From positions 11,219 to 75,218 of the forward strand of contig JBEKXN010000002.1 in assembly GCA_049511835.1 (NCBI GenBank): a DNA stretch of 64,000 nt, given 5' to 3'. The stretch is from Verrucomicrobiota bacterium (lineage in GTDB: Bacteria > Verrucomicrobiota > Verrucomicrobiia > Limisphaerales > UBA11358). A program made the position numbers and the translations under genes. The notes under the pieces are model-generated. The model was not told the DNA's origin. It made no database searches and saw nothing but the letters and a program-made list of their open reading frames with translations. This document shows positions 3,188-45,900 of this stretch, piece by piece (the stretch's first letter is position 1; every line of letters begins with the position of its first letter).

Positions 3188-5782
3188 TCAGGAATGATTG
3201 TTTTCAGAGTTCCCATGAAGCACTTCATGCAGTGTATTAAGAATGGTCTCAGCGGTGTAGGGCTTGGGAATAAAATGCTGGATGCCGGTGTTCTTTACCA
3301 TGGCCAGGCCACCGTCGGAGGCCAGGCCGGTTGAACTGACGATCCTGACTCCCGCATTGATGGCTTTGAGGGCAACAACGGTGGCCGGGCCATCCATGAT
3401 GGGCATGGCCATGTCAGTGATGACCACGTCGATTTCCTTCTGCCGGGGTGCGTACACAGAGACGGCTTCAGCGCCATCAGCCGCGAGCAGGACGCGGTAA
3501 CCAAAACGGGTCAGCACTTTTTGCGCAAGGTTGCGGATCGGCTCCTCGTCATCCACGACCAGCACCAGTTCATTATGGCCGTGCGGCAGTTTGGATTGTT
3601 CGATTTCCTCGTCTTTCAATTCATCCAGCGTGGTGTTGGCTGGGAAATAGACTTCGAACACGGTGCCCTTGCCCGTGGTGCTGTGATAATTGATGAAACC
3701 GCCGTGACCCTTGACGATGGCCAAAGTGGTGGACAAACCCAGCCCGGTGCCTTTGCCGAGTGCTTTGGTGGTAAAGAAAGGATCAAATATCTTGTCCTGT
3801 ATCGCCTTCGGAATTCCCGTGCCGGTGTCCTCCACTTTGATACGCACGTACGGGCCGGGCCGGGCTTCCAGATTCATGCCGGCATAGACTTCGTCGAACA
3901 TCACATTTTCCATGTGGATGACCAGGGTGCCGCCTTTGGGCATGGCGTCGCGTGCGTTGACACAGAGATTCAACAGGACCTGGTGGATTTGGGTCGGGTC
4001 GCCGATGATGGTCCAGAGGTCGTCGGGTGAATGGAATTCAAACTTCACTGATTTGGGGAAGGTTTCATGGACAATCTGTTTGATTTCGCGGGCGACGTGA
4101 GCGGGATAAACCATGGTGCGCTCGCCGGTGACCCCGCGTCCGAAAGCCAGCACTTGTTTCACGAGGCTCGCACCGCGCCGGACGTTGGTTTCCAGAACGC
4201 GCAGCAGTTGTTGCCCGTCGTCATCGGTGATTTTTTCCTTTAACATCTGCACCGCGACGAGGAGTGGTGTCAGCACGTTGTTGAGGTCGTGGGCGATGCC
4301 GCCCGCCAGGGTGCCAATGCTTTCCATGCGTTGAGAGCGCAGGAACTGGGTTTCGAACTTCTTCTTTTCGGTGATGTCGCTGAAAAGAAAAAGCAGGTGC
4401 GGTTCGTCACCCCGGACAAAGGGACTGAATTGACAGACCAGCCAGATTTCCTTGCCGAAGGTGCTGACAAAATGGGATTCACACTGCTGCGGGCTTCCGG
4501 TGGCCAGGGTTTTTTCCGCCAGCTTGAGCAGGCCCGAATTGCGCCACGATTCGAGCTGCCGGAAATCCTGGTTCAAAAGTTGGGACACAGTGGCATTGAC
4601 CGTCCGGGCGGCGGCCTCGTTGGCCAATACGCATTGACCGGACGCCTTGTAGACGAGGATCCCCACGGGAGCGTCCGAGATAATTTTCCGGTTGAAATCG
4701 AGCGTCTCAGCCAGGGAGTGCTCCATCCGCTTGCGTTCGGTGATGTCCTGGAGGGTGGAGCGGATGCCGATAACGCGCCCGTCGTCGTCGTAAAGAATCC
4801 GGTTCTCAATCAGGACCGGCAGAAAGGCCCCATCCTTTCGCCGATAGTTTCGTTCCACCAACTCGGTCGCCGGCGTTTTCCCCGCCAGCCGGGCCATGAC
4901 CGCTTCTCTGGCTTTCTCCCGTTCGGCAACAAAGTCCCACATGAAATGCCCCACCATTTCTTCGGTGGTATATCCCAGCATGACCAGTTCAGTGCGATTA
5001 ACCCTGGTGATGCGTCCCGCCTCATCCAACTCGTGATAGCCCACCGGAGCGTCTTCAAACAACGACTCAAATTGTATTTTGCTCTCTTTGAACTCCTTCT
5101 CCGTCCGCTTGCGCTCAGTAATATCTTCTTTGACGGCCAGAAAATGAGCGATGTGGCCGGCCGCGTCGTAAATCGGGGAAATGGAAGCCCACTCCCAATA
5201 AAGTTCACCGTTCTTCTTCCGGTTATGAAATTCTCCGCGCCACTCCCCGCCAGCGACGATCGTTTCCCACAGTCGCTTGTAATTCCCCGGCGGCATTTCA
5301 CCCGACTTCAAAATGCGGGGATTTTTGCCGATCACTTCCCTGGCCGAATAGCCCGTCACCTCCATGAACTTCGGGTTGACATATTCGATGTTGCCGGCCT
5401 TGTCGGTGATGATAATGGAAACCGGACTATGTTCGATGGCAAGCGACAATTTGCGGACTTCTTCATCCGCCTGCTTGCGCTGCCAAATCACGAAGGCCAT
5501 CACCCACAACACGCTGACGCCCATCAAACGGCTGAACATTGCAAAATGGGGGTCAACCCCCGGCGGGGAAAAAATGAACCCTGCCAGCATCAGCAGCGAG
5601 AAAACGGCGGCGAGCAAAATGGGTAAAAGCCGGCCGCCGACATAAACCGATAACAGCAGGGGAATGAAATAGTAAACCCAGTCGGAGATTCCCCAAGGGC
5701 TGGTCAGATCCAAAACAAACCCCCCAATGGCAAAAATGGGGATTGCCACAAGAGCAACCGTTCTAAGTCGCGCAGCGGTCAT
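3188..5782 (-). CDS. Membrane-bound multi-PAS hybrid sensor histidine kinase with C-terminal receiver
   Basis: N-terminal TM helices and three PAS-like blocks ending DITERK. H-box GIAHDLNNVLTPL. HATPase motifs DTGTGI and GTGLGL. Receiver region VLVVDDEEPIR...ITDMAMPIMDG. Confidence 0.9.
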   Translation of the reverse strand: MTAARLRTVALVAIPIFAIGGFVLDLTSPWGISDWVYYFIPLLLSVYVGGRLLPILLAAVFSLLMLAGFIFSPPGVDPHFAMFSRLMGVSVLWVMAFVIWQRKQADEEVRKLSLAIEHSPVSIIITDKAGNIEYVNPKFMEVTGYSAREVIGKNPRILKSGEMPPGNYKRLWETIVAGGEWRGEFHNRKKNGELYWEWASISPIYDAAGHIAHFLAVKEDITERKRTEKEFKESKIQFESLFEDAPVGYHELDEAGRITRVNRTELVMLGYTTEEMVGHFMWDFVAEREKAREAVMARLAGKTPATELVERNYRRKDGAFLPVLIENRILYDDDGRVIGIRSTLQDITERKRMEHSLAETLDFNRKIISDAPVGILVYKASGQCVLANEAAARTVNATVSQLLNQDFRQLESWRNSGLLKLAEKTLATGSPQQCESHFVSTFGKEIWLVCQFSPFVRGDEPHLLFLFSDITEKKKFETQFLRSQRMESIGTLAGGIAHDLNNVLTPLLVAVQMLKEKITDDDGQQLLRVLETNVRRGASLVKQVLAFGRGVTGERTMVYPAHVAREIKQIVHETFPKSVKFEFHSPDDLWTIIGDPTQIHQVLLNLCVNARDAMPKGGTLVIHMENVMFDEVYAGMNLEARPGPYVRIKVEDTGTGIPKAIQDKIFDPFFTTKALGKGTGLGLSTTLAIVKGHGGFINYHSTTGKGTVFEVYFPANTTLDELKDEEIEQSKLPHGHNELVLVVDDEEPIRNLAQKVLTRFGYRVLLAADGAEAVSVYAPRQKEIDVVITDMAMPIMDGPATVVALKAINAGVRIVSSTGLASDGGLAMVKNTGIQHFIPKPYTAETILNTLHEVLHGNSENNHS

Positions 5783-26002: not shown

Positions 26003-29002
26003 ATGAAAGCGACCCTTATCAAAGAGAAAAAATCGGTTGAGCCGTCGCCCCAGGTGCAAACCGCGCCGGGCAATTTGGAAAACCGGATCGGGGCCGAACC
26101 AACCTGCGAGCGTGACTTGTTGCGGACGCTGATTGACGGCCTGCCCGATAACATTTTCATCAAAGACCGGCAAAGCCGGTTTCTGATCAGCAATCTGGCG
26201 CACGTACGGACGTTGGGCGTGACCCGTCTCGACGAGGTGATTGGTAAAACCGACCTCGATATTTTTCCGCCGGAATTAGCCAATCGATATTATGGGGATG
26301 AACAGGCGCTGATGGAATCCGGCCAATCGCTGAATCGGGAAGAAATGGTGGTGAATCCGCGAACCGGCGAGAAGCGCTGGCTGCAAACCACGAAAGTGCC
26401 GCTGAGAGACAAGGAGGGGAAGGTCGTCGGGCTGATGGGCATCAACCGGGACATCACGGATCGGAAGCGGGCGGAAGAGGCGCTGGCCAGTGCGCATCGG
26501 CTGTTGGAAGCGATGCTGGACAACATTCCTGACCGGATTTATTTTAAAGACACCCAATGCCGGTTCGTTCAATGCAACCGGGCGGTTGCCAGGCGCGTGG
26601 GCGTGGAAGATCCCAAACAGGTCATCGGTAAAACGGACTTTGATTTTTACCCTCCGGAAAAGGCCGAGGAGTTCCGGAAGGATGATCAAAGGATTATGCA
26701 GAGCGGCGAGCCGTTGCTCAACAAGACCGAGCAGGTCATCAAGCCCAACGGCGAAATGACTTGGTCGTCCATTGCCAAAGTGCCGCTGCGAGACAGGGAA
26801 GGGAAAATCGTGGGTTTGGTGGGCATCAGCCGGGACATTACGGATCAGAAACGAGCGGAGGAGGTCCTGCGCCAATCGCGCGACGAACTGGAGAAACGGG
26901 TCGCCGAACGCACCGCTGAACTTTCACACGAACGCCTGCTGCTGCGAACGCTCATTGACAACCTGCCGGACGGCATCTACGCCAAGGACACCGCCGGCCG
27001 GAAGACGCTGGCCAATCCGGCTGACCTGAAAAACCTCCGCTGCAAAACCGAAGCCGAGGCGATCGGCAAAAGCGATTTCGATTTTTATCCGCACGACATT
27101 GCCGAAAAATTCCAAGCCGACGACCAGAGTGTAATTCAGGGCCAGCCGGTCATCAACCGGGAGGAGTATTTCTTCGACGGCGAGGGCCAGAAGCGCTGGT
27201 TGTTGACCAGCAAGCTGCCGTTGCACGATCAAAACGGAACAATCGTCGGTCTGGTGGGCATCGGCCGGGACATCACGGAACGTAAGCGGGCGGAAGAGAT
27301 GTTGGTCAGGGAACGCCTCCTGCTGCGGACGCTGATAGACAACCTGCCGGACGGCATTTACGCCAAGGACACCGCCGGCCGCAAGACCCTGGCCAATCCG
27401 GCCGACTTGAAGGTTATGGGGTGCAAGACGGAAGCCGAGGCCGTCGGCAAGAGCGATTTCGATTTCTTTCCCAAGGACATTGCCGAAAAATTTTGGGCCG
27501 ACGATCAAAAGGTGATTGAGGGCCAACCGGTCATCAACCGGGAGGAGTATTTCTTCAACGAAAAAGGCCGGAAATGTTGGTTGTTGACCAGCAAGCTGCC
27601 GTTGCGCGATCAGGACGAAAAGATCTTCGGCCTGGTGGGCATTGGCCGGGACATCACCGACCGGAAACTGACCGAAGCCAAGCTGGCTCATGAGCGCGAC
27701 CTGCTGAACACCCTCATGGACAACACGCCGGACCTTTTTTACTTCAAGGACCTTCAGTCGCGCTTCGTGCGGGTGAGCAAATCCACGCTGAAGTATTCAT
27801 TTGAATCGGCCCTGAAACGCCACCGCTCCAGTCACCAATCCCCTGACGCCGGGGAACTGCCACCGCACCTGGCCAGCCTGGAAGAGTTCAAAAAGTATCT
27901 GATTGGCAAAACGGATTTCGACGTCCTCGACGAGGAACGCGCCCGGTCGACATACAACGACGAGCAGGAGATCATCCGTACCGGCCAGCCCATCATCGGC
28001 AAACTCAGACGCACGACCATGCCCGACGGCACGGTTGGCTGGCGGATCACCAACAAGATGCCCTGGCGTGACAAGGACGGGAAGATCATCGGTACCTTCG
28101 GCACTGGCCGGGACATCACAGCCATCAAGGAAGCTGAAGCCAAGCTCGAGCAAAGCCACAAACAGCTTCTGGAAGTCTCGCGCCAGGCCGGGATGGCTGA
28201 AGTGGCCACCAGTGTCCTTCACAATGTCGGCAATGTGCTGAATAGCGTCAATGTCGCGTCCTCTTGTGTTGCCGACAGCCTCAGGAACTCCAAGGCAGCC
28301 AACCTGTCCAAAATTGTCGCTTTGCTGCGTGAGCACGAAGCGGACTTGGGCCATTTCATCGCCAATGATCCCAAAGGCAAACAGTTGCCCGGGTATCTGG
28401 CGCAACTGGCCGGGTATCTGGCTGGCGAACAAACCGACGCTTTGGATAAACTTGCCCGGCTGCAAAAGAACATCGAGCACATCCGGGAAATTGTTGCCAT
28501 GCAACAAAACTACGCGAAGGCTTCAGGTGTCCTTGAGTCGTTGCCCATTGTTGATCTGGTGGAAGACGCCGTTCGAATGAATGTCGGCTCACTGGAGCGT
28601 CATAATGTAAAGATGCTGCGCGAATATTCCGAAACGCCCCTGGTTTTGGTGGACAAGCACAAAGTGCTGCAAATTTTGGTGAACCTGATCAGCAATGCCA
28701 AACATGCCTGCAAAGATTCTGAAAAGCCGGACAAACAAATCACCCTGCGCGTGGCGAATGAAAAGGAACGGATCAAAATATCAGTCATTGATAACGGCGT
28801 CGGCATTCCCGCGGAAAATATGACCCGGATTTTCAATTACGGATTCACAACCAGAAAAGACGGCCACGGCTTCGGCCTTCACAATGGCGCCCTGGCCGCA
28901 AAAGAAATGGGCGGAAGCCTTGCCGCTTTCAGCGAAGGACCGGGGCGGGGAGCCACCTTTACGCTGGAACTGCCAATCCAGGGACAAAAGGCAAACGTAT
29001 GA
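26003..29002 (+). CDS. Multi-PAS sensor histidine kinase (cytoplasmic, about 6 PAS units)
   Basis: Repeated PAS blocks each ending GI(N/S/G)RDIT(D/E)(R/Q)K. DHp H-box [15 protein letters not shown] (His codon at 28220-28222). HATPase motifs DNGVGI and GHGFGL. Confidence 0.9.
26930..27691. repeat. Internal tandem duplication of one PAS unit (2 x 381 bp)
   Basis: [34 protein letters not shown]...GIGRDIT occurs twice, starting at 26930 and 27311. Long stretches are nucleotide-identical. Confidence 0.85.
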
Positions 29003-30846
29003 ACGTCAACCCGGATAAAAATCATCGGATTCTGGTCATTGATGACAACAAGGCCATACACGAAGATTTTCGCGCAATCCTGACCAAGCCCAAAGCTCCG
29101 TCGCATGATATGGCCGAAGCTGAAGCCGCCTTGTTCGGCGACGCAATGCCGCAAATTGAATTTCCGGAATTCCAGATTAATTCCGCGTTTCAGGGGCAGG
29201 AGGGGTTGGATTTAATCGAGAAAAGCCTTCAGGAAAATCAGCCTTACGCCATGGCCTTCGTGGATGTTCGCATGCCGCCCGGATGGGACGGCGTTGAAAC
29301 CACGGCAAAAATCTGGCAAAAGTACCCCGATCTGCAAGTCGTTATTTGCACCGCCTATTCGGATTATTCGTGGGAAGAAATGTTGAAAAAACTCGGCTAT
29401 TCCGACCGGTTGGTCATTCTGAAAAAGCCGTTCGATAATATCGAAGTTTTGCAACTGGCCATTTCCATGACTGAAAAGTGGCGGCTCTATAATCAGGCCA
29501 AGCTCCGGTTGGAAGATCTGGAAAAAATGGTCCAGGAACGCACCGTCCAACTGGAAGCCACCAACAACGAACTGGTTGCCGCCAATCGACTGTTGATGAT
29601 AGCGACGGAAAAAACGCAGAAAATGGCCCAAGCCGCGCTGGTCGCCACCGAGGCCAAAAGCGAATTCCTCGCCAACATGAGTCATGAAATCCGCACTCCC
29701 ATGAACGGCGTCATCGGCATGATCAATCTGTTGCTCGATACGCCGCTGGCGCCCGAACAGCGCGAGTTCGCCAATACAATAAAAATTAGCGCCGACAGTC
29801 TGTTGTCCATCATCAATGACATCCTCGACTTTTCAAAAATTGAAGCGGGCAAGATGACCATTGAAAAAGTGGATTTTGACCTGGGCGAGACGGTGAAAAA
29901 TTCCATCGTGCTGCTCCAGCCGCGGGCAAAAGACAAAGGGCTGGCCCTGCATTATGCAATCCATCAAGACGTTCACACCCGCCTCGTGGGCGATCCCACG
30001 CGGCTTCGGCAAATCCTGCTTAACCTGTTCAACAACGCCATCAAATTCACCGATCGGGGCGAGGTCTTTCTGGAAGTCGCGCAACTCAGCGAAAAGGATG
30101 GAGAAACTGAATTGCGTTTTTCCGTCCGCGACACCGGCATCGGAATGTCGGAAGAAGTTCGGAAAAAATTATTTCAATCCTTCACGCAAGCGGACTCGTC
30201 CACGACCCGCCGGTTCGGCGGCACGGGTTTGGGGCTGGCCATTTGCCGCAAGTTGGTTGAATTGATGGGCGGATCCATCAACGTCACCAGCGATCCGGGC
30301 AAAGGTTCAACCTTCTGGTTCACCCTTCCATTCGCGAAACAAAAACCGCACGACCTGGTGAGTGATGGATCAATTGCCCAGCCGGAATCTACCAACGGCG
30401 CCGATGCGATGGCAGGTTCCGCTGCGCCAAACAGCCCCCGTGTTCTTTTGGCTGAAGACAATAAAATCAACCAGTTGGTTGGGGTGAAGCAGCTCCAAAA
30501 ACTTGGTTACGATGTGGATGTCGCGCGTAACGGGCTTGAAGCGGTGGAAGCCTGGAAACGGGACAAATACAGCGTCATTCTGATGGATTGCCATATGCCG
30601 GAGATGGACGGATATGAGGCCACTCGAAAAATTCGTAAATTGGAAGCAGAGCAAAATTTGCCACACGCGCGAATCATTGCGTTGACGGCCAGCGTGATGA
30701 AAGAGGACCGTGAACTTTGCCTGGCCGCGGGCATGGACGATTACATTGCCAAGCCGGTGGACACCGGCGAATTAAAAGGCTTGCTTGAAAAAGCAACCCC
30801 GCGCCGGACAGATATTAATTGTGCGTTGAAACCATCCAATCAATGA
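28999..30846 (+). CDS. Hybrid histidine kinase with receivers at both ends (REC-HisKA-HATPase-REC)
   Basis: ATGA overlap with the upstream kinase. N-terminal receiver [14 protein letters not shown]...[11 protein letters not shown]-box [13 protein letters not shown]. HATPase motifs DTGIGM and GTGLGLAI. C-terminal receiver [11 protein letters not shown]...[10 protein letters not shown]. Confidence 0.9.
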
Positions 30847-38108: not shown

Positions 38109-39572
38109 CTATTCGTTGTGCGGAATCTTGATCGTGCTCCCGCCGATGAATTCCCGGATAACGGCGTCCCCCGGGATGAGGTCGCAGGTTAAAAGTTGTT
38201 TCTTCGTAAAACCTTCCACCGATTCGAGCAGCGCCTTTACCCGGTCGTAACGGATGCGCGCGTCGAGAAAGCCCGCGTAAGGCGCGAAATCCTCCGGCTT
38301 GGGCAGCAGACCGCCTTCCCCGATGAAGAACGGTTTGAGCGCGGGCAATTCGAAGGGAAATCCGCCGTTGATGATGTAATCGCCCAGTCCCATGAGCGGG
38401 ATGATGCTGAACAGCTCTCCGTAACGCACGTAATGCCAGTGCAAAATCGTGCGCAGCGCGCTGTGGTTGCGGTGGCGCGCGTCACGCAACATGCGCCGGA
38501 TGAGACGCACATCGGTGAACTGCGTGAGCCGGTTCGTGCTCCCGTCGCCTTCGTACAACACGTTCAGCGTTTCGATGTAGAGACGGAATTGCGCGGAGGC
38601 ATCAATCCCTTCGGTGATGGGCGGGTAAAACCCGTGCAGGCAATCCAGCAAAAGAATCTGGTCCGGCTCAAGCCGCACCTGCCTGGTGCCTACGCGCCGG
38701 CCTTCCTTGAAACTGTAAATCGGTTTTTCAACCGTCTGCCCCTCGAGCAGCGCCCGAAGGTGCTGATTCAACAACTGAATGTCCAGCGCTTCCGGCGTCT
38801 CGTAATTCCGGTCATTGATCCAGTCGGTCGGATGCTCGACCAGCGACCAGAAATAGTCGTCGAGATTGAGCATCAAAAAACGCAGGCCCTGTTTTTCGAG
38901 CCGCTGCGTCAGCTTGACCGTCGTGGTTGTCTTGCCGGAGGAACTGGGGCCGCTCACCCACATCATCCGCAAACGGTTGCCCGCGTTCAGCCGCGCCAGG
39001 ACTTTCTGCGCCGCCTCGTCCAGCGACCGTTCATAGGCATCCAGCGACGCAACGATCACCTCCTTGATGCGCCCGCTGCGGACCGCGTCGTTCAGGCCGG
39101 CCACCGTGTCCACCCCCAGCCGCCGATTTTCTTCGAGGATTTGTTCCATCCGCTCGCGGGGAAAACCGTTGCCGGCGAATTTTTCCGGCGTCAACGCTCC
39201 CTCCCGCAGCCAATGCCGTCCCCAGCGATAACATTCGTAGGCATCGGCGGTGTTCTGGAAACCGTAGCTGCGCAGCGTGTGCAACACCTCGTCCTGGATG
39301 GACTCAATCGTCGGCGGAAAATTTGAAATCAGGTGATGCGGGTCAGAGTTGAGGCAGACGGTGGCCGCGTCCGCCAGAAAACCCGCGATGTTTTCATCCG
39401 AAACCTGTGCGCTGAAAATCTTGTCGTTAATGCCCGGCAGAAAATCCCGGTGAAAACCGCCGATGGATTCCGCGGCGCGCAAAATGGCCCTGCCGATGCG
39501 GTCCGAATCGAATTTGACCAGCGCCCGGTTGCGCTTCTGGACCTTGACAATGCGGTTTTGTACTGGCATCAC
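38109..39572 (-). CDS. ATP-cone domain fused to a uridine kinase/phosphoribulokinase-family P-loop kinase
   Basis: The N-terminal IVKVQKRNRALVKFDSDRIGRAILRA resembles an ATP-cone. A P-loop VSGPSSSGKTTTT follows, then LNLDDYF as in the PRK/UK family. Confidence 0.7.
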   Translation of the reverse strand: MMPVQNRIVKVQKRNRALVKFDSDRIGRAILRAAESIGGFHRDFLPGINDKIFSAQVSDENIAGFLADAATVCLNSDPHHLISNFPPTIESIQDEVLHTLRSYGFQNTADAYECYRWGRHWLREGALTPEKFAGNGFPRERMEQILEENRRLGVDTVAGLNDAVRSGRIKEVIVASLDAYERSLDEAAQKVLARLNAGNRLRMMWVSGPSSSGKTTTTVKLTQRLEKQGLRFLMLNLDDYFWSLVEHPTDWINDRNYETPEALDIQLLNQHLRALLEGQTVEKPIYSFKEGRRVGTRQVRLEPDQILLLDCLHGFYPPITEGIDASAQFRLYIETLNVLYEGDGSTNRLTQFTDVRLIRRMLRDARHRNHSALRTILHWHYVRYGELFSIIPLMGLGDYIINGGFPFELPALKPFFIGEGGLLPKPEDFAPYAGFLDARIRYDRVKALLESVEGFTKKQLLTCDLIPGDAVIREFIGGSTIKIPHNE

Positions 39573-40530: not shown

Positions 40531-40714
40531 ACTTCGAAGCGTCTGCGTCAGTAGTTTCTTCTTGGCTCTCCAAATGCTTTATCTCAGTTGAGCTTATTAT
40601 GCGAACCAACGATAAGAGGCGATGTGCACAAGATGAAGGCGGGCCGCGTCTGAATTCTGGACAGGGCCGGGCTTCAGAAGGCAGCACTGTCGCCGTCATG
40701 CAAAAGGGGTTTGC

Positions 40715-41590
40715 ATGAGTTTCAGTTTCCCACAAGTCATGGAGTTCATCACCGGCGCGCTGCAATTCAGCGTTGCTGGTTACGCCCTGCGACTAAACCG
40801 GATCTTCGGGACGGCCCGCGTGGGCTGGTCGCTGTTCTGGGCCTTTACGCTTCTGGCACTGCTCCACTTGTTTCAATCCATTGCGTTGTTCAATTCCGGC
40901 GAACCGTTGGGGGTCGAGATTGAGGTGATGTATTCCCTCATTTCGCTGCTGCTGCTGACCGGCATGGTCCACATCGAAACCTTGCTCAAGGAGCGTTTGC
41001 GGTTTGAGCGCGAGGAACGGCGTTTGCGGGCCGAATTGGAATCCGAAGTCAAAAAGAAAACGGCGTACCTGAGCCGGGCCATCGAGGAGCTGCAATCGGA
41101 AATTGACGGACGCAAACGAATGGAGGCGGAGGTCGAGAAGACGCACAAGGAACTCCTCGCCGCTTCCCGCCAGGCGGGGATGGTGGAGATAGCCGCCGGG
41201 GTGCTGCGCAACGTGGGCAATATTCTCAAGAATGCCGATGTCTCCGCCAGCCTGGTTTCCGACCAGGTGAAGCAATCCAAGATCGCCAATGTCGTCCATG
41301 TTGGCAACCTGATACGCGAACACGTGAAGGATCTGGGTGACTTTATGGCGCGCGATCCGAGGGGCCAAAAGTTGCCGGAGTATATCGCGGAACTGGCCGA
41401 GCATCTGGCCAATGAACAAACCATGCTCTCAAGTGAGCTGGAATCCCTTAGAAAGAACATCGAGGAAGCCGAAGTGGAGCAGGAAAGCTACACCAAGCTC
41501 ATGAGCAAGGAAGAAGCGGCAAAAGCCGCTGCCCCGCTCGAACAAGCGCCAACGATGAATGGCGACACGCCGGCGCGGCCGGACGTGTAG
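40715..41590 (+). CDS. Membrane-anchored DHp-only histidine-kinase paralog with Arg in place of the phosphoacceptor His and no ATPase domain
   Basis: Three N-terminal TM helices and a coiled coil, then SRQAGMVEIAAGVLRNVGNILKN. This aligns to [23 protein letters not shown] of the 26003-29002 kinase. Similarity continues to LRKNIE, after which the protein ends in a low-complexity tail. Confidence 0.75.
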   Translation: MSFSFPQVMEFITGALQFSVAGYALRLNRIFGTARVGWSLFWAFTLLALLHLFQSIALFNSGEPLGVEIEVMYSLISLLLLTGMVHIETLLKERLRFEREERRLRAELESEVKKKTAYLSRAIEELQSEIDGRKRMEAEVEKTHKELLAASRQAGMVEIAAGVLRNVGNILKNADVSASLVSDQVKQSKIANVVHVGNLIREHVKDLGDFMARDPRGQKLPEYIAELAEHLANEQTMLSSELESLRKNIEEAEVEQESYTKLMSKEEAAKAAAPLEQAPTMNGDTPARPDV

Positions 41591-41655
41591 ATTTTCAGGG
41601 GATATAAACCGCGCCTCCCCGAAATCACCGTGCATCGCCCTCGCGCGCAACTCCG

Positions 41656-42012
41656 TCAGCGTGGTTCGTCGTCATGGCCCAACAATCGGGCGAAGTAAAA
41701 GCAGCCGGCCGCAATGAGGATTGAAACCGCCACAATGATTTCCGCCTGTGTGCCGGGCTGTTTCAGGTCATCGAACCACTCCTCAATTACCGGGCCCATT
41801 TTGCCGTAGAGCATTCCCATCTGCCGCGTCTGGGCCTTGTTGTATCCCAGCATGGATAGGTCATCCGACATATCCGGAGAACGCGTCCCCAGCCAATAAA
41901 CCACGCCCGCGCCGCCCAAGCCCAGCACCAGCACGATGATGCCAATCATCCTGAGCCGCGCACTGCGCCTGGAGGACGCATGAGGACCGGAAATTTTGTC
42001 AATTGGCATCAT
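41656..42012 (-). CDS. Small two-TM membrane protein, hypothetical
   Basis: 118-aa ORF with two hydrophobic helices (MIGIIVLVLGLGGAGVVYWLG and IIVAVSILIAAGCFYFA). Confidence 0.5.
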   Translation of the reverse strand: MMPIDKISGPHASSRRSARLRMIGIIVLVLGLGGAGVVYWLGTRSPDMSDDLSMLGYNKAQTRQMGMLYGKMGPVIEEWFDDLKQPGTQAEIIVAVSILIAAGCFYFARLLGHDDEPR

Positions 42013-42106
42013 GTGCGCAGTGTTCTACGCGCACCGCCAGTAAAACACAAGTCCGCCGACGCTGCCGGATTGCCATTTGCGCCTGAACCGGCAATGATGT
42101 CCGTTC

Positions 42107-42385
42107 ATGAAACACAATTCGTATTTTGACGGAAAAGTTCAGAGCTTGGCCGTGAACACATTGGAAGGCCCGGCCACGGCTGGCGTGATTGAGCCGGGCA
42201 AATACACCTTCAAGACCGACTCGGAGGAACACATGCACGTCGTCGCCGGCACATTGAAAGCGAAAATTCCCGGAGCCTCGTGGCAGACGTTTGCCAGGGG
42301 CCAGTTTTTTGTGGTCCCGGCGCATGCGTCCTTTGATGTCGAGGCCGCTGCCGACGTAGCCTATCTCTGCCATTACAAAAAGTAG
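42107..42385 (+). CDS. ppnP: Pyrimidine/purine nucleoside phosphorylase PpnP (DUF1255/YaiE)
   Basis: 92 aa. N(S)YFDGKVQS...G.YTF.T...E.M.VV.G.L....P......F..G..F.VP....F......A.YLC.Y follows the E. coli PpnP pattern. Confidence 0.85.
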   Translation: MKHNSYFDGKVQSLAVNTLEGPATAGVIEPGKYTFKTDSEEHMHVVAGTLKAKIPGASWQTFARGQFFVVPAHASFDVEAAADVAYLCHYKK

Positions 42386-42387
42386 TT

Positions 42388-42413
42388 TGTAGCGGCGCTC
42401 TGTGAGCGCCGGA
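42388..42413. repeat. REP family B half-copy (TGTAGCGGCGCTCTGTGAGCGCCGG)
   Basis: The identical string occurs at 50689-50714. Confidence 0.8.
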
Positions 42414-42423
42414 AGATGGCAAA

Positions 42424-42478
42424 TGTGGCACAGACCTCTGGTCTGTGTTTTGGCACACAGGCCGGAGGCCTGTGCCAC
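42424..42478. repeat. REP family C copy
   Basis: tgtggcacagacctctggtctgtg...cacaggccggaggcctgtgccac. Confidence 0.85.
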
Positions 42479-42614
42479 GAGAAGTTGCGTCTTGGCAACA
42501 TTGCAGACTTGCGCATCCGCGCACTGACTTCGGAGCGCCGGCCTCCGGCCTGGTGAGGGTCGAGAGATTTCAGAAACAACGCGCCGGATCGGAATTCGGC
42601 ACTCCGCGTTGCCA

Positions 42615-43016
42615 TTAAAGTCGGGGGTAGTGTGATGCGTCTCTTGCGGACTTGCACGGGATGCGATTTGGCCGGGACAACTTGGGAGACTTTTTGCTGC
42701 CGGCGGCGATTTGAATCGCACGATGCGCCCAAGCCACCAACTCTTCCCGGTTTTCCAGCACGTCCGGCGGCACTTCGTGATAACCCATCGTCATCACGCG
42801 CCCCTTCATCTCGTAGGTGAACGGTCCCATGCCGCGCGCAATATAGTCAGCCTGCGACAGCGTGTCCGTTTTGAAAAACAGCCGGCCCTCGTCCAGAATT
42901 GCGAAGAAGGACTCACCCTGATACAACCCATGCGCGCCAAACATTGCCCGGGCACGCACGTCCGGCAACGCGCTCAACTGGTCGAGCACAAATTCTTTGA
43001 ACGAGTCATCCGCCAT
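42615..43016 (-). CDS. TfoX N-terminal domain protein
   Basis: Start moved to ATG 43016. MADDSFKEFVLDQLSALPDVRARAMFGAHGLYQGESFFAILDEGRLFFKTD is typical of the TfoX_N fold. Confidence 0.8.
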   Translation of the reverse strand: MADDSFKEFVLDQLSALPDVRARAMFGAHGLYQGESFFAILDEGRLFFKTDTLSQADYIARGMGPFTYEMKGRVMTMGYHEVPPDVLENREELVAWAHRAIQIAAGSKKSPKLSRPNRIPCKSARDASHYPRL

Positions 43017-43338
43017 TGCTGCGAAAGATTTAACGCAAAAATCGCGGCCTGTCACGCCGCAGCCGAAAGCGAAAGAGAAAGGTGCAAAGTCAAAAAGCAA
43101 TAGCGGCAACTCTGGGAACATTGCCATTGCGGCGGGTGGAGTTGTTTGTTGGTTGCCTTAAAGCCGGTCGGGATATCGGCCTTTGCTCTGAAGCTTCGGC
43201 GCGACCGACTGGCTTCTCCGGAGGTGTGCGCCATGGTTCAAAAATATGTGTTACCTAAAGGAATAGAGGAAGTTGCGCAAATTGCCAATAATTTTCCTTG
43301 TCTTTTTCCGGAACATGTCCCATACTTAGACAGTTGTT

Positions 43339-43812
43339 ATGGTATTAAATGTTCCAACTCAAAAAATCCTGGTTGTTGATGACAATCCGATAATTCTAAG
43401 GGTCTTGTCTTCGGCCTTCAAAGCCAGAGGCTACGAGGTGTTTACCGCCGTTGACGGTCCCGAGGCCTTCATCATCGTGAGCCGGGAACAGCCGGACCTT
43501 ATTTTGCTCGATATTTTCTTTCCGCCGGATCTTTTCCAAAGCGGCAACACTTGGGATGCGTTTAAGATTATGAACTGGCTCCAACGCATGGGCGGACCCC
43601 AAGCCAAGCATATTCCCGTCATCATCATGTCCGGCGCTGACCCGGGGGAAATCAAGGATCGTTGTCTGGCCGCCGGCGCAGTGGACTACTTCCAAAAACC
43701 GATCCAGATGCCCGAACTGCTGGAAGCCATTCAGCAAATCTTCTGCCCGGCTGTGAGCGAAGTGCCGCATGAATTGGTGGTCATTTCAAGTTCCGGTCGC
43801 CTGCGCCTTTAG
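43339..43812 (+). CDS. Single-domain response regulator (CheY-like receiver), copy 1
   Basis: KILVVDDNPIILRVL...DLILLDIFFPP...VIIMSGA...DYFQKP. Confidence 0.85.
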   Translation: MVLNVPTQKILVVDDNPIILRVLSSAFKARGYEVFTAVDGPEAFIIVSREQPDLILLDIFFPPDLFQSGNTWDAFKIMNWLQRMGGPQAKHIPVIIMSGADPGEIKDRCLAAGAVDYFQKPIQMPELLEAIQQIFCPAVSEVPHELVVISSSGRLRL

Positions 43813-43911
43813 CCAAACATCCGGTGGTAATGCGCTCAACGGGCCGGTGGCAAATTGCCAATAATTTGCCTTCTTTTTGTCCGGAGTATTTGCCATGCTG
43901 AAGCCGTTGTT

Positions 43912-44385
43912 ATGGCGTCAAGTCTTGCCACAAAAAAAATTCTGGTTGTTGATGACAATCAGATAATCCTGAATGTCTTGTCGTCGGCCCTCAAATCCAG
44001 AGGCTACGAGGTGTTTACGGCCGTTGACGGTCCCGCAGCCTTCACGGTCGTGCTTCAGGAACAGCCGGACCTCATCCTGCTCGATATTTTCTTTCCGCCC
44101 GACATCTTCCAGAGCGGTAACACCTGGGATGGGTTTCTGATTATGCACTGGCTCCAACGCATGGGCGGACCCCGGGCCAATCGCACCCCCGTAATCGTCA
44201 TGTCCGGGGCTGAACCGGTGGAAATCAAGGATCGTTGTCTGGCCGCCGGCGCAGTGGACTACTTTCAAAAACCGGTCAAGATTCCCGAACTGCTGGACGC
44301 CATTCAGCAACTCTCCCGCCCGAGGGTGAGCGAAGTGCCGCTTGAAGTGGCGGCCATGTCAAATTCCGAGCAACTGCGCCTCTAG
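43912..44385 (+). CDS. Single-domain response regulator (CheY-like receiver), copy 2
   Basis: Start moved to ATG 43912 (MASSLATKKILVVDDNQIILNVL...). Paralog of 43339-43812. Confidence 0.85.
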   Translation: MASSLATKKILVVDDNQIILNVLSSALKSRGYEVFTAVDGPAAFTVVLQEQPDLILLDIFFPPDIFQSGNTWDGFLIMHWLQRMGGPRANRTPVIVMSGAEPVEIKDRCLAAGAVDYFQKPVKIPELLDAIQQLSRPRVSEVPLEVAAMSNSEQLRL

Positions 44386-44392
44386 CCAAACC

Positions 44393-44446
44393 TCTGGCTG
44401 CAACGCACTCAACTGGTCGAGCACAAATTCTTTGAAGGAGTCGTCA
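44393..44446 (-). pseudogene. tfoX 5'-end fragment (start codon lost)
   Basis: ctggctgcaacgcactcaactggtcgagcacaaattctttgaaggagtcgtc matches 42962-43010 of the intact tfoX-like gene. Confidence 0.7.
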
Positions 44447-44463
44447 GTCAAGATACGGGAGAG

Positions 44464-45900
44464 TCATTTAGGTTTGGCAGCTTGTTCTTTAGCGAGTTGA
44501 ACCATTTTATCGAACTCATCCTTGCCGCCGAAACGGGAATAGGTTTCTGGCCCCAGTTTTGGAATCAGTTCGTTCAATACGTCCCACTGTCCGGCTTGAT
44601 ATGCGTACCAAGCGTAATATTCATTATAGGAACCGCCGGGATTGGGGTATAGCTGGAAGAAGCGGTCGTAGGCTGATTTGATGTCAGCCCAGACATCAGG
44701 CTGCTTCCAGTAATTGGTCTGTTCTGATTTGTCAATGTAACCTTGGCAATAGTTCCAATGGGCGTCGACCAGCACCAAGGGGACCCGACCGGCCCAATTT
44801 GTGTTCTGTACACATTCGCGTCCGAAATCAAGCATCGCTTCCCGGGAGCCATACCATTTAGGCTCCAGATAGTAGAGTTTTCTTGAACAGGCTTCATAGT
44901 CATTGGGGTTCAATACCATCGCCCGATCAAACCACAGTTCCATTCGATCCTGACCTCCACCCTGGCCCAACATCACGGTCATCATCTGGTGGGCAATTTC
45001 CGGGTCTTTGGGATTTAATTTCCAAGCGTGTTCCAAAGCTTTTTCCGCCGTGTCGAGTCGTTCGCTGAAATGTTCCCAGCCTTTGGCGCTGACGGTGTAG
45101 GCCCAACCACTGCCGCGGGCATTCCACGCCATCTGGATGTAGGCGGTGCCTTTCAATAACCAGACGATGTAATCATCCGGCCAGTTTTCCAACAGTGGTT
45201 TTTCAACGCAACGATAGGCTTGTTGATAATTGTTCGTGTCGCCGCTCATCCAATACAGGTCTTTGTTGGCGATTTCATATGCCTCACGTGCCGGCATGGT
45301 CTTGTCGTTGAGGGCTGCCTCAACGTTTTGGCCGATTAATGGCGTAAATTCTCCCCAAATCGGCTGGTTGGCCGTGTTCGTACCGTAGGTGTATAAGATC
45401 TGATCCAATGCCCATGTTGCCGCATAGAATTTCCGAACAGGAGGATACGTGCTCTTTTGCATGTCCTTCGCCGTTTGGCAAAATGCCTTGAGAAAGGCTT
45501 CCTTGCTGTTCGTCTGGTCGAGCGCGAACCGGATGAAGAGGTATTTTAACATGGGATCGTCACAGCCGGCTTGGACGGCGGATTCACAGTTAGTTGCAAT
45601 GATCAAGCCCCAAGCTTCATTCGATTCGGTGCAGAGCGATCGTACGCGGGCAAATTCAGTCATGGCACGTTTGACTGGCGCGTCCCATTTTGGACTGGTA
45701 TGACCTGCTTTTTCGTAAGCCTCAACCAGCGTTTTAAGGTTCCACGCCAATCTTTGCTCTTTGGCCTGCTCGGGGGAAAGAGTGGGTTGAATTGGCTTCG
45801 GCGCAGTCGTTTTTTTACAACCCGTCGCCGTGAGAAGAAGAAAACCCGTCGTACCTAATACCGCGAGCCACACCAGCAAGATTGAATTCGCGAGCTTCAT
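44464..45900 (-). CDS. Probable lipoprotein with helical-repeat body
   Basis: MKLANSILLVWLAVLGTTGFLLLTATGC signal with Cys. Trp/Tyr-rich helical repeats include ...LEPKWYGSREAM.... AT-richer than the flanks by eye. The resemblance to DUF4034-type proteins is from memory only. Confidence 0.65.
   Translation of the reverse strand: MKLANSILLVWLAVLGTTGFLLLTATGCKKTTAPKPIQPTLSPEQAKEQRLAWNLKTLVEAYEKAGHTSPKWDAPVKRAMTEFARVRSLCTESNEAWGLIIATNCESAVQAGCDDPMLKYLFIRFALDQTNSKEAFLKAFCQTAKDMQKSTYPPVRKFYAATWALDQILYTYGTNTANQPIWGEFTPLIGQNVEAALNDKTMPAREAYEIANKDLYWMSGDTNNYQQAYRCVEKPLLENWPDDYIVWLLKGTAYIQMAWNARGSGWAYTVSAKGWEHFSERLDTAEKALEHAWKLNPKDPEIAHQMMTVMLGQGGGQDRMELWFDRAMVLNPNDYEACSRKLYYLEPKWYGSREAMLDFGRECVQNTNWAGRVPLVLVDAHWNYCQGYIDKSEQTNYWKQPDVWADIKSAYDRFFQLYPNPGGSYNEYYAWYAYQAGQWDVLNELIPKLGPETYSRFGGKDEFDKMVQLAKEQAAKPK

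What the first reader, a model, noticed from the sequence alone, without database searches (positions are those of the whole stretch)
40715..41590. Stand-alone membrane DHp domain: kinase paralog with His-to-Arg at the phosphoacceptor and no ATPase domain
Residues ~150-235 align closely with the DHp region of the 999-aa kinase (SRQAGM(V/A)E(I/V)A..VL(R/H)NVGN(I/V)L(K/N)...QLP(E/G)Y(I/L)A(E/Q)LA..L..EQ.....L..L(R/Q)KNIE). The phosphoacceptor codon is CGC (41207-41209) versus CAC (28220-28222). The ORF terminates in an acidic or low-complexity tail directly after DHp helix 2. No HATPase remnant is visible in any frame downstream, because the next gene is convergent. Inference: either this is a decaying kinase, or it is a dedicated non-phosphorylatable dimerisation partner. 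Such a partner could act as an anti-kinase or scaffold that heterodimerises with the VLHNVGN-type kinases of this genome.
Basis: partly seen in the sequence, partly recalled or inferred. Interest (0 to 1): 0.62.

Follow-up and report, generated by a model that had tools for sequence, protein, structure and literature searches.

The report
Conserved kinase-less membrane histidine-kinase relative
This gene encodes a membrane-anchored relative of bacterial sensor kinases that lost its ATP-using domain long ago and, in this genome, its phosphorylated histidine. It is still conserved, selected and transcribed in peat-soil Verrucomicrobia, so it is a working non-enzymatic signalling protein, not a dead gene.

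Summary
ORF 40715-41590 encodes a 291-aa protein with 3 TM helices, a long coiled coil, a DHp-like helical hairpin and a disordered tail. It aligns with the DHp region of the 999-aa kinase at 45% identity over 157 aa (E 4e-36). Arg (CGC) sits where the kinase has its phosphoacceptor His (CAC). There is no ATPase domain and no remnant of one.

It is not a pseudogene:
- 215 protein clusters and 23 species-level Verrucomicrobiia MAGs carry the same CA-less form of 260-333 aa.
- dN/dS is about 0.27, within the range of neighbouring genes, and only the tail evolves neutrally.
- Peat metatranscriptomes contain contigs spanning the gene.

The Arg is not the defining feature. That column reads R, Q, H, E and others across the family, whereas 40 of 40 sampled full-length paralogs keep His.

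The family is one clade, sister to ~430-aa 3TM-DHp-ATPase kinases of the same lineage. Both types occur in one MAG.

Constraint is relaxed on the H-box and strongest on the TM module and the extended hairpin.

The most likely function is an accessory pseudokinase that acts by protein-protein contact with such kinases or their receiver partners. This is inferred and was not tested. I rate it a new variant of a known kind, of moderate interest.

The parts
40715..41590 (+). Whole CDS of the 291-aa CA-less histidine-kinase paralog. It is monocistronic, lying between a divergent upstream gene and a convergent downstream gene.
   Evidence: Orthologs of 260-333 aa occur in 215 clusters.
40715..40975 (+). 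N-terminal membrane module, residues 1-87, with three TM helices. Inferred topology is N-out, C-in, with almost no periplasmic loop. It contains invariant or near-invariant YALRLNR.FG..RVGWSLF.AF, H51 and H86.
   Evidence: AF2 helices 5-31, 33-59 and 66 onward. Conservation. dN/dS 0.20. Topology follows the positive-inside rule applied to the sequence (inference).
40976..41164 (+). Signalling coiled coil, residues 88-150, continuous with TM3 and with DHp helix 1.
   Evidence: A single helix 66-202 with pLDDT 90-98 over residues 91-150. dN/dS 0.20. The same TM+coil module is found fused to PAS/HisKA/HATPase outputs in P0136, P0140 and P0237.
41165..41320 (+). DHp helix 1, residues 151-202, including the degenerate H-box AGVLRNVGN and the first half of the hairpin extension.
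   Evidence: H-box conservation is relaxed compared with the kinases.
41207..41209 (+). Codon CGC for Arg165, at the position of the phosphoacceptor His (CAC at 28220-28222 in the 999-aa kinase).
   Evidence: Family census of this column: R112, Q54, H21, E18, K3 and others.
41321..41371 (+). Hairpin tip, residues 203-219, with the family signature DPRGQKLP.
   Evidence: Short helices 204-213 and 215-218. Near-invariant in short forms and conserved in kinases of the same DHp type.
41372..41530 (+). DHp helix 2, residues 220-272. The N-terminal half (YIAELAEHLANEQ) is highly conserved. The C-terminal half, opposite the H-box, is acidic (NIEEAEVEQESY) and 6 residues shorter than in kinases and in more distant short forms.
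   Evidence: dN/dS is 0.125 for residues 181-235 and 0.225 for residues 236-262.
41531..41590 (+). Disordered low-complexity tail, residues 273-291, plus the stop codon.
   Evidence: pLDDT below 50. dN/dS 0.89 for residues 263-291. Length and sequence vary among orthologs.
26003..29002 (+). Comparator in the window: a 999-aa kinase with five PAS domains, a VLHNVGN-type DHp (His740, codon 28220-28222) and HATPase_c.
28999..30846 (+). A 615-aa REC-HisKA-HATPase-REC hybrid kinase whose start overlaps the stop of the 999-aa kinase. It is the likely phosphoacceptor partner class for VLHNVGN-type DHp domains.
   Evidence: The same two-gene layout follows the 3TM kinases in L028-L037.
41656..42012 (-). 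Convergent 118-aa membrane-protein gene that bounds the locus 65 nt after the stop codon. It is syntenic in the close clade only.

Best explanation
The gene encodes a functional, non-catalytic 'pseudo-histidine kinase'. It is an ancient paralog of the ~430-aa 3TM-coiled coil-DHp-ATPase kinases of Limisphaerales-type Verrucomicrobia. It lost the ATPase (CA) domain once, then stopped needing the phosphoacceptor His.

What is shown:
- It kept the membrane input module, the signalling coiled coil and the extended DHp hairpin.
- It is conserved, under purifying selection and transcribed.
- It can neither bind ATP nor, in this genome, be phosphorylated at the canonical site.

What is inferred:
- It works by protein-protein contact as a membrane-anchored accessory regulator. 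The logic resembles RocA/CovS or RetS/GacS.
- It probably dimerises through its coil and DHp, then associates with catalytically active kinases that share its TM/coil/DHp type. It would do this in mixed dimers or higher oligomers.
- In that way it would tune how much phosphate reaches the REC-hybrid kinases that these kinases feed.

Whether it contacts the kinase protomer or the receiver domain is not resolved.
For: - Homology and anatomy.
- CA-less form fixed: 215 clusters of 260-333 aa. All 23 GTDB species loci have open frames of 342 aa or less. The syntenic site is conserved in the clade of 80% identity or more.
- Selection: dN/dS is 0.27 overall, 0.125 in the hairpin extension and 0.89 in the tail. 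Neighbouring genes range from 0.08 to 0.46.
- Transcription: peat metatranscriptome contigs span the ORF.
- Shift of constraint: in 100 kinase representatives [13 protein letters not shown] is at least 90% invariant. In the short forms the His column is R/Q/H/E/K and others, and H+1 and H+4 vary. TM, coil and residues 181-235 are the most conserved parts.
- Origin: the protein is collinear over 258 aa with a full-length 3TM kinase from the same MAG, DATJTK01 (39% identity, E 4e-56). Short forms form one clade, and 40 of 40 sampled full-length paralogs keep His.
- Partner class exists: VLHNVGN kinases are always followed by a REC-containing gene, as in the window.
- Precedents: RetS-GacS DHp heterodimer (PMC8498467). 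A CA-frameshifted ChrS pseudokinase remains active and heterodimerises with HrrS (PMC9491836). RocA is unaffected by mutating its His, and CA-less RocA complements when overexpressed (PMC7028121).
Against: - No interaction was tested. No partner gene is linked: the gene is monocistronic in both synteny types.
- The co-resident full-length paralog is only 39% identical. From general knowledge, histidine-kinase paralogs usually evolve to avoid heterodimerising.
- The part of the four-helix bundle around the H-box, including helix 2 opposite it, is the least conserved helical part. It carries a 6-residue deletion in this clade. That fits poorly with a canonical DHp-DHp heterodimer at that level.
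- Co-occurrence with a 3TM kinase was shown in one MAG only, and that depends on correct binning.
- The AF2 model is a monomer with pTM 0.34, and the fold search was uninformative.
Confidence: 0.45

Rival explanations
1. Receiver-domain decoy, tether or phosphatase-like partner. A homodimer of the short protein keeps the receiver-docking surface of the DHp (helix 1 below the former His, plus the hairpin). It binds the special N-terminal REC of the hybrid kinases, or a stand-alone REC. It would then sequester the receiver at the membrane, shield it, or help dephosphorylate it.
For: The most conserved cytoplasmic stretch runs from helix 1 downstream of the H position through the hairpin to the start of helix 2. 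In solved HK-RR complexes that is the side of the DHp where receivers dock (general knowledge, HK853-RR468). VLHNVGN kinases always have a dedicated REC partner gene, and the short form has none of its own. The DHp domain of EnvZ alone retains phosphatase activity (general knowledge, Zhu et al. 2000). N at H+4 is kept in the window clade.
Against: H+1 and H+4, which are phosphatase residues in HisKA-type kinases, are not conserved family-wide: NVGN becomes SVGD or SVGE. The neighbouring single-domain regulators (43339-43812, 43855-44385) are not of the REC class paired with these kinases. That neighbourhood is also lost in the distant clade. The hairpin signature is equally a general structural feature of the kinases, so its conservation need not mean receiver binding.
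Confidence: 0.25
2. Repurposed membrane coiled-coil protein with a role outside two-component signalling, such as a scaffold or organiser of a membrane complex. The DHp-like hairpin would serve only as a structural dimerisation module.
For: The catalytic H-box is degenerate, while the TM and coil are strongly conserved. Related CA-less variants of 357-526 aa have expanded coiled coils, very degenerate H-boxes and a different conserved C-terminal motif (P0165, P0183, P0193, P0227). There is no linked signalling gene.
Against: The DHp-family signature residues of the hairpin are retained almost invariantly after long divergence. The same TM+coil module is otherwise found only on signalling proteins.
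Confidence: 0.2
3. Split kinase or phosphotransfer protein. The DHp would be phosphorylated in trans by the ATPase domain of another kinase and would pass phosphate on, as in Spo0B or ChpT, or in split kinases such as Hik36-Hik43.
For: About 10% of family clusters keep His at the canonical position, including several basal branches. Split kinases exist (PMC7656254).
Against: This genome has Arg, and about 90% of clusters have a residue that cannot be phosphorylated there (R/Q/E/K/S and others). No CA-only gene is linked.
Confidence: 0.05
4. Decaying pseudogene: a recently truncated kinase remnant.
For: It lacks the CA domain and the His. Three orthologous loci from MAGs show frame breaks (L014, L016, L026), which may be assembly errors.
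Against: The same short architecture is intact in the great majority of relatives down to 52% identity. dN/dS is 0.27 with domain-specific constraint, comparable to neighbouring genes. The gene is transcribed. The clade is monophyletic and old.
Confidence: 0.02

Closest known systems
RocA of group A Streptococcus, accessory pseudokinase of CovS (PMC7028121)
   Same: A membrane-spanning histidine-kinase-like protein. Mutating its predicted phosphoacceptor His has no effect, and a form lacking the CA domain can still complement. It acts through a bona fide kinase.
   Different: RocA still carries a degenerate CA domain and a His. There is no sequence relationship to it, and the DHp type and TM module are different. 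For the present protein no partner is known or tested.
RetS-GacS multikinase network of Pseudomonas aeruginosa (PMC8498467)
   Same: One kinase-like protein blocks another by replacing the canonical DHp homodimer interface with a heterodimeric one. This is the model behind the anti-kinase reading.
   Different: RetS is a large hybrid protein with a CA domain and receiver domains. The present protein has only TM, coil and DHp, and its H-box-level bundle is the least conserved part.
ChrS_CA-fs, a laboratory-evolved CA-frameshifted ChrS pseudokinase of Corynebacterium glutamicum (PMC9491836)
   Same: A histidine kinase that lost its CA domain and still has a phenotype distinct from deletion. ChrS and its paralog HrrS form heterodimers.
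   Different: It arose by a recent frameshift under laboratory selection. The present protein is an ancient natural family with hundreds of members, and its His has also been replaced.
~430-aa 3TM-coiled coil-VLHNVGN DHp-HATPase_c kinases of Verrucomicrobiia (P0132, P0366-P0484; L028-L041)
   Same: The same three-TM module, coiled coil and extended DHp hairpin, collinear over about 258 residues. They come from the same lineage and habitat and co-occur with the short form in MAG DATJTK01.
   Different: They keep the invariant His (40 of 40) and the ATPase domain, and are always followed by a REC-containing gene. The short form has none of these.
DivL of Caulobacter (PMC4211667), and the HOS two-helix output domain of RpBphP1 (PMC6899989)
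   Same: Both are kinase-derived modules repurposed for binding instead of phosphorylation. DivL has Tyr in place of His (general knowledge). HOS is a two-helix output domain in place of a histidine-kinase output.
   Different: DivL retains a CA domain used as a sensor. HOS is soluble and fused to a phytochrome. Neither is homologous in detail to this protein.

Membership tests
Class I sensor histidine kinase (DHp + CA) | Phosphoacceptor His in DHp helix 1 | tested here: not met
   Arg165 (CGC) aligns with His740 of the 999-aa kinase and with the FixL H-box His. Only about 10% of family clusters have His.
Class I sensor histidine kinase (DHp + CA) | HATPase_c (CA) ATP-binding domain | tested here: not met
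   No Pfam or NCBIfam hit. No remnant downstream in any frame. All relatives are 333 aa or shorter.
Class I sensor histidine kinase (DHp + CA) | DHp helical hairpin homologous to that of kinases | tested here: met
   45% identity, E 4e-36, to the kinase DHp. 4426 library hits at E<=1e-10, with CA-containing kinases making up most of the top 150. AF2 places helix 1 within one continuous helix 66-202 and helix 2 at 220-272.
Class I sensor histidine kinase (DHp + CA) | Adjacent cognate receiver gene | tested here: not met
   Monocistronic between divergent and convergent genes in both synteny types. The nearest regulators are 1.7 kb away, separated from it by three genes, two on the other strand, and of a different REC class.
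Accessory pseudo-histidine kinases (RocA-like logic) | Membrane-anchored kinase-like protein in which the phosphoacceptor and CA are dispensable | tested here: met
   Three TM helices. The His column is freely substituted and the CA is absent, yet the gene is under purifying selection.
Accessory pseudo-histidine kinases (RocA-like logic) | Physically binds and modulates a bona fide kinase | not testable with these tools
   Only circumstantial: shared TM/coil/DHp type and co-occurrence in MAG DATJTK01.
Histidine phosphotransferases (Spo0B/ChpT/HPt) | Conserved phosphorylatable His that relays phosphate | tested here: not met
   Arg in this genome. The family census reads R112, Q54, H21, E18.
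Small anti-kinase proteins (Sda, KipI, FixT) | Membership of those protein families | tested here: not met
   No Pfam or NCBIfam match to any of them. The protein is kinase-derived instead.
Pseudogene | Loss of constraint (dN/dS near 1), disrupted frames, and full-length functional orthologs at the syntenic site | tested here: not met
   dN/dS is 0.27, against 0.08-0.46 for neighbouring genes. The frame is intact in 20 of the 23 species loci. All syntenic orthologs are short.

The most novel reading that the evidence does not exclude
The family would be a naturally evolved, signal-responsive 'dominant-negative subunit'. It shares its three-TM input module with several active kinases of the same cell, both the 3TM-DHp-CA kinases and the multi-PAS HisKA kinases. 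It would co-assemble with them in the membrane through the TM and coiled-coil module and poison or re-wire them. One catalytically dead protomer would then set the gain of a whole set of kinase-to-hybrid-kinase cascades. The extended hairpin, more conserved here than the H-box, would be a previously unrecognised docking platform of this DHp class.
Probability: 0.15. Interest if true: 0.75.

Novelty: new variant of a known kind. Interest (0 to 1): 0.5.

Why it matters
Pseudo-histidine kinases are known from a handful of cases: RocA, DivL, RetS and a laboratory-evolved ChrS. Most of these still carry a CA domain.

This case is different in scale and completeness. It is a large, old, naturally occurring family in uncultured peat and soil Verrucomicrobia. 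The ATPase domain was removed outright and the phosphoacceptor was then substituted repeatedly. The membrane input module and an unusually long DHp hairpin stayed under purifying selection.

The family therefore gives a clean natural experiment on which parts of a histidine kinase matter for non-catalytic signalling. It also points to a poorly described DHp class (VLHNVGN, missed by Pfam HisKA). That class is consistently wired to a REC-containing gene directly downstream, most often a REC-fronted hybrid kinase.

The practical impact is limited until a partner is found.

Tried and rejected
- Pfam and NCBIfam scans of the 291-aa protein found nothing above threshold.
- A PDB sequence search with the short protein found only a chance coiled-coil hit.
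- A Foldseek search of the AF2 model against the PDB gave no match with E<=0.001 and only generic helical bundles. Elongated helical hairpins are uninformative for this method.
- The promoter and terminator scan around the gene gave nothing usable.
- I tested whether the two nearby single-domain response regulators (43339-44385) are the partner. They are syntenic only in the close clade. They show no similarity to the REC class that accompanies VLHNVGN kinases. This idea was dropped.
- I looked for a conserved operon partner in the distant clade. The context there is different (PilT-like ATPase upstream, 2-oxoacid:ferredoxin oxidoreductase downstream) and the gene is again monocistronic.
- I considered a dedicated phosphatase role. 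It is weakened because H+1 and H+4 are not conserved family-wide.
- A literature search for the motif 'HNVGN' found nothing relevant. A search for 'stand-alone DHp' or 'DHp-only' proteins found no description of such a family.
Only one MAG-level co-occurrence was obtained.

Full report
**Observation**

The ORF at 40715-41590 (+) is real and encodes 291 aa. BLASTP against the 999-aa ORF at 26003-29002 gives 45% identity over 157 residues (E 4e-36). Residues 129-282 of the short protein align with residues 704-851 of the kinase.

- The motif AGVLRNVGN of the short protein lies on SVLHNVGN of the kinase.
- The codons are CGC at 41207-41209 and CAC at 28220-28222.
- The kinase His is the phosphoacceptor. 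In a search of solved structures, the H-box of FixL-type kinases (ALAHELNQPL) aligns on VLHNVGNVL, and FixL helix 2 aligns on [13 protein letters not shown].
- Pfam finds five PAS domains and HATPase_c (884-993) in the kinase, but no HisKA. It finds nothing at all in the short protein.
- No ATPase remnant exists downstream. A tblastn of the kinase CA domain against 41300-44500 gives only chance hits with E>1. The positive control recovers the kinase's own CA at 28490-28999 and the CA of another kinase gene at 3641-4009.
- The next gene (41656-42012, minus strand) is convergent and begins 65 nt after the stop.

**Anatomy**

An AlphaFold2 model was built on 113 family sequences (mean pLDDT 76.9). 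It shows these elements:
- Two TM helices at residues 5-31 and 33-59.
- A third TM helix that runs on without a break as one helix from 66 to 202. This covers TM3, a coiled coil with pLDDT 90-98, and DHp helix 1.
- A short tip at 204-218.
- A return helix at 220-272, which is DHp helix 2.
- A disordered tail at 272-291.

Charge distribution suggests N-out, C-in topology with almost no periplasmic loop (inference from the sequence). Compared with FixL, the hairpin is about 36 residues longer. The 'insert' between the H-box and helix 2 is therefore an extension of both helices plus a tip carrying DPRGQKLP.

In the window's clade, helix 2 opposite the H-box reads NIEEAEVEQESY. It is six residues shorter than the NIE(H/Y)I(R/K)EIVAMQQNY of the kinases and of more distant short forms.

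**Is it a dying gene? No.**

Two searches of the 5.8-billion-protein collection returned 215 clusters (90% identity level) of the same architecture. All are 260-333 aa and none has a CA domain.

A scan of one genome per GTDB species found 23 loci. All are in Verrucomicrobiia/Limisphaerales-type MAGs from peat, bog and soil, at 57-93% identity. The open frame never exceeds 342 aa.

In the clade of 80% identity or more, the neighbourhood is conserved: PRK/ATP-cone (-), DUF4412 (-), this gene (+), 118-aa membrane protein (-), Ppnp (+), TfoX_N (-), response regulator (+). That test fails to refute.

Nei-Gojobori dN/dS among the eleven closest sequences (the window gene and ten orthologs) is 0.27 overall. 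By region it is 0.20 (TM), 0.20 (coil), 0.24 (H-box), 0.125 (residues 181-235), 0.225 (helix 2 end) and 0.89 (tail). Neighbouring genes in the same genome pairs range from 0.08 to 0.46.

Contigs assembled from peat and soil metatranscriptomes cover the whole ORF in close relatives. One example is a 1268-nt contig of depth 83 spanning 40648-41748. DNA carry-over in such libraries cannot be excluded.

**The Arg is not the point**

At the phosphoacceptor column the family reads R112, Q54, H21, E18, K3 and single S, D, L, N, A, P, G. P0121 has Cys. His-bearing members are just as truncated. Several basal branches keep His, and the window's clade is mostly CGC-Arg, with a nested pair of species loci (L005, L006) that carry His.

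In a neighbour-joining tree the short forms make one clade, separate from the full-length 3TM kinases. All 40 sampled full-length kinases keep His. The simplest history is one ancient loss of the CA domain, followed by repeated loss of a His that no longer mattered.

**Shift of constraint**

In 100 CA-containing representatives of this DHp type, the block [13 protein letters not shown] is at least 90% invariant, and the hairpin signature (D-P-x-G ... P ... L ... L ... EQ) is also conserved.

In the short forms the H-box is relaxed: the His column, H+1 and H+4 all vary. The TM module, the coil and residues 181-235 are the most conserved parts. SDQVKQSKIANV and DPRGQKLP.YIA.LAEHL are nearly invariant down to 52% overall identity.

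The protein has therefore kept the fold and surfaces of the DHp and of the input module, and has dropped the chemistry.

**Origin and pathway context**

About 430-aa kinases with the same three-TM module, coiled coil, VLHNVGN DHp and HATPase_c are abundant in the same lineage. Their gene is always followed, with a 4- to 11-nt overlap, by one of two things. One is a REC-(PAS)-HisKA-HATPase(-REC) hybrid kinase and the other is a 183-aa REC protein.

The window shows the same layout for its PAS kinase and the 615-aa hybrid at 28999-30846. The N-terminal REC domains of these hybrids form their own class, 48-58% identical to one another. The window hybrid's N-REC appears to carry an extra stretch of roughly 40 residues. 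That is my reading of the printed sequence and was not checked against a REC model.

One MAG (DATJTK01) carries both a short form (contig 116, L024) and a full-length 3TM kinase (contig 90, L037). The two are collinear over 258 residues at 39% identity (E 4e-56). The short form ends where the kinase's CA linker begins.

**Mechanism**

Three things are shown. The protein cannot bind ATP through a CA domain. In this genome it cannot be phosphorylated at the canonical site. It is nevertheless maintained by selection. It must therefore act by binding.

I commit to an accessory-pseudokinase model. In it, a membrane-anchored dimer associates with active kinases of the same TM/coil/DHp type and modulates phosphate flow to the REC-hybrid kinases. 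Three precedents support this:
- RetS replaces the GacS homodimer interface (PMC8498467).
- A CA-frameshifted ChrS remains active, and ChrS and HrrS form heterodimers (PMC9491836).
- RocA acts on CovS, and its His and CA are dispensable (PMC7028121).

Confidence in the mechanism is about 0.45. Confidence that the protein is a functional non-catalytic protein is about 0.9.

Four points count against the mechanism:
- Identity to the co-resident paralog is only 39%.
- The bundle is poorly conserved and partly deleted at H-box level.
- No partner gene is linked.
- No interaction data exist.

The main rival is a receiver-domain decoy or tether using the conserved helix 1/hairpin surface (0.25). Next is a repurposed structural membrane coiled-coil protein (0.2). 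A split-kinase or phosphotransfer role is possible only for His-bearing orthologs (0.05). Pseudogene is excluded (0.02).

**Comparison and novelty**

The protein fails two defining tests of a histidine kinase, His and CA, so I do not file it as one. It fits the operational class of pseudo-histidine kinases. Literature searches found no description of a natural, widespread, CA-less, DHp-only membrane family or of the VLHNVGN motif. I rate it a new variant of a known kind, of moderate interest (0.5).

Noticed in passing
window 26003-30846; L028-L041: There is a conserved two-gene module. A kinase with the VLHNVGN-type extended DHp is immediately followed, with overlapping stop and start, by a REC-(PAS)-HisKA-HATPase(-REC) hybrid kinase or a 183-aa REC. 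The N-terminal REC domains form their own class (48-58% identical). The window hybrid's N-REC appears to carry a ~40-aa insert, judged by eye only. This suggests a kinase-to-kinase cascade typical of these Verrucomicrobia.
   Followed up: partly
window 28085-28999 (DHp-CA of the 999-aa kinase): The DHp of this kinase class is not recognised by Pfam HisKA or any other Pfam DHp model, although 4426 library proteins match at E<=1e-10. The hairpin is about 36 residues longer than in FixL.
   Followed up: partly
P0136, P0140, P0237, P0134, P0139, P0150: The three-TM plus coiled-coil module (residues 1-145) is 49-64% identical to the N-termini of proteins with quite different outputs. These include multi-PAS + HisKA + HATPase (+REC) and unknown C-terminal regions. 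That is closer than its match to the ~430-aa 3TM kinases (about 40%). It looks like a mobile, uncharacterised membrane input module with no Pfam model. H51 is nearly invariant and H86 invariant in the short forms.
   Followed up: partly
P0165, P0183, P0193, P0227: Longer CA-less relatives of 357-526 aa have the same TM module and expanded, repetitive coiled coils. Their H-box is very degenerate (Phe, Pro or no alignable residue). They share a C-terminal motif, roughly HL(I/L)xN(V/L)T(E/Q/H)TGTE, that is absent from the window protein.
   Followed up: no
L026 6001-6857; L014; L016; L018: Some orthologous loci in MAGs show frame breaks. L026's open frame is only 156 aa, and L014 and L016 break near the 3' end. 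L018 has an in-frame deletion of about 33 residues in helix 2. These could be assembly errors or genuine local decay.
   Followed up: no
L007 6931-9911: In one ortholog locus about 3 kb is inserted between the gene and the convergent 118-aa gene. The insert encodes secreted proteins that look PEP-CTERM-like by eye, and a 43-aa fragment similar to part of the gene lies at its far end.
   Followed up: no
window 43339-44385: Two tandem paralogous single-domain response regulators (157 and 176 aa, 73% identical). Related genomes carry one or two copies at this site.
   Followed up: partly
window 38109-39572 (-): A 487-aa protein combining an ATP-cone-like N-terminus with a PRK (phosphoribulokinase/uridine kinase) domain, conserved upstream in the syntenic clade.
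   Followed up: no
L024 / L037 (DATJTK01): The MAG labelled 'Candidatus Sulfotelmatobacter sp.' (an acidobacterial name) carries genes that otherwise occur only in Verrucomicrobiia MAGs. The label or the binning is probably wrong.
   Followed up: no
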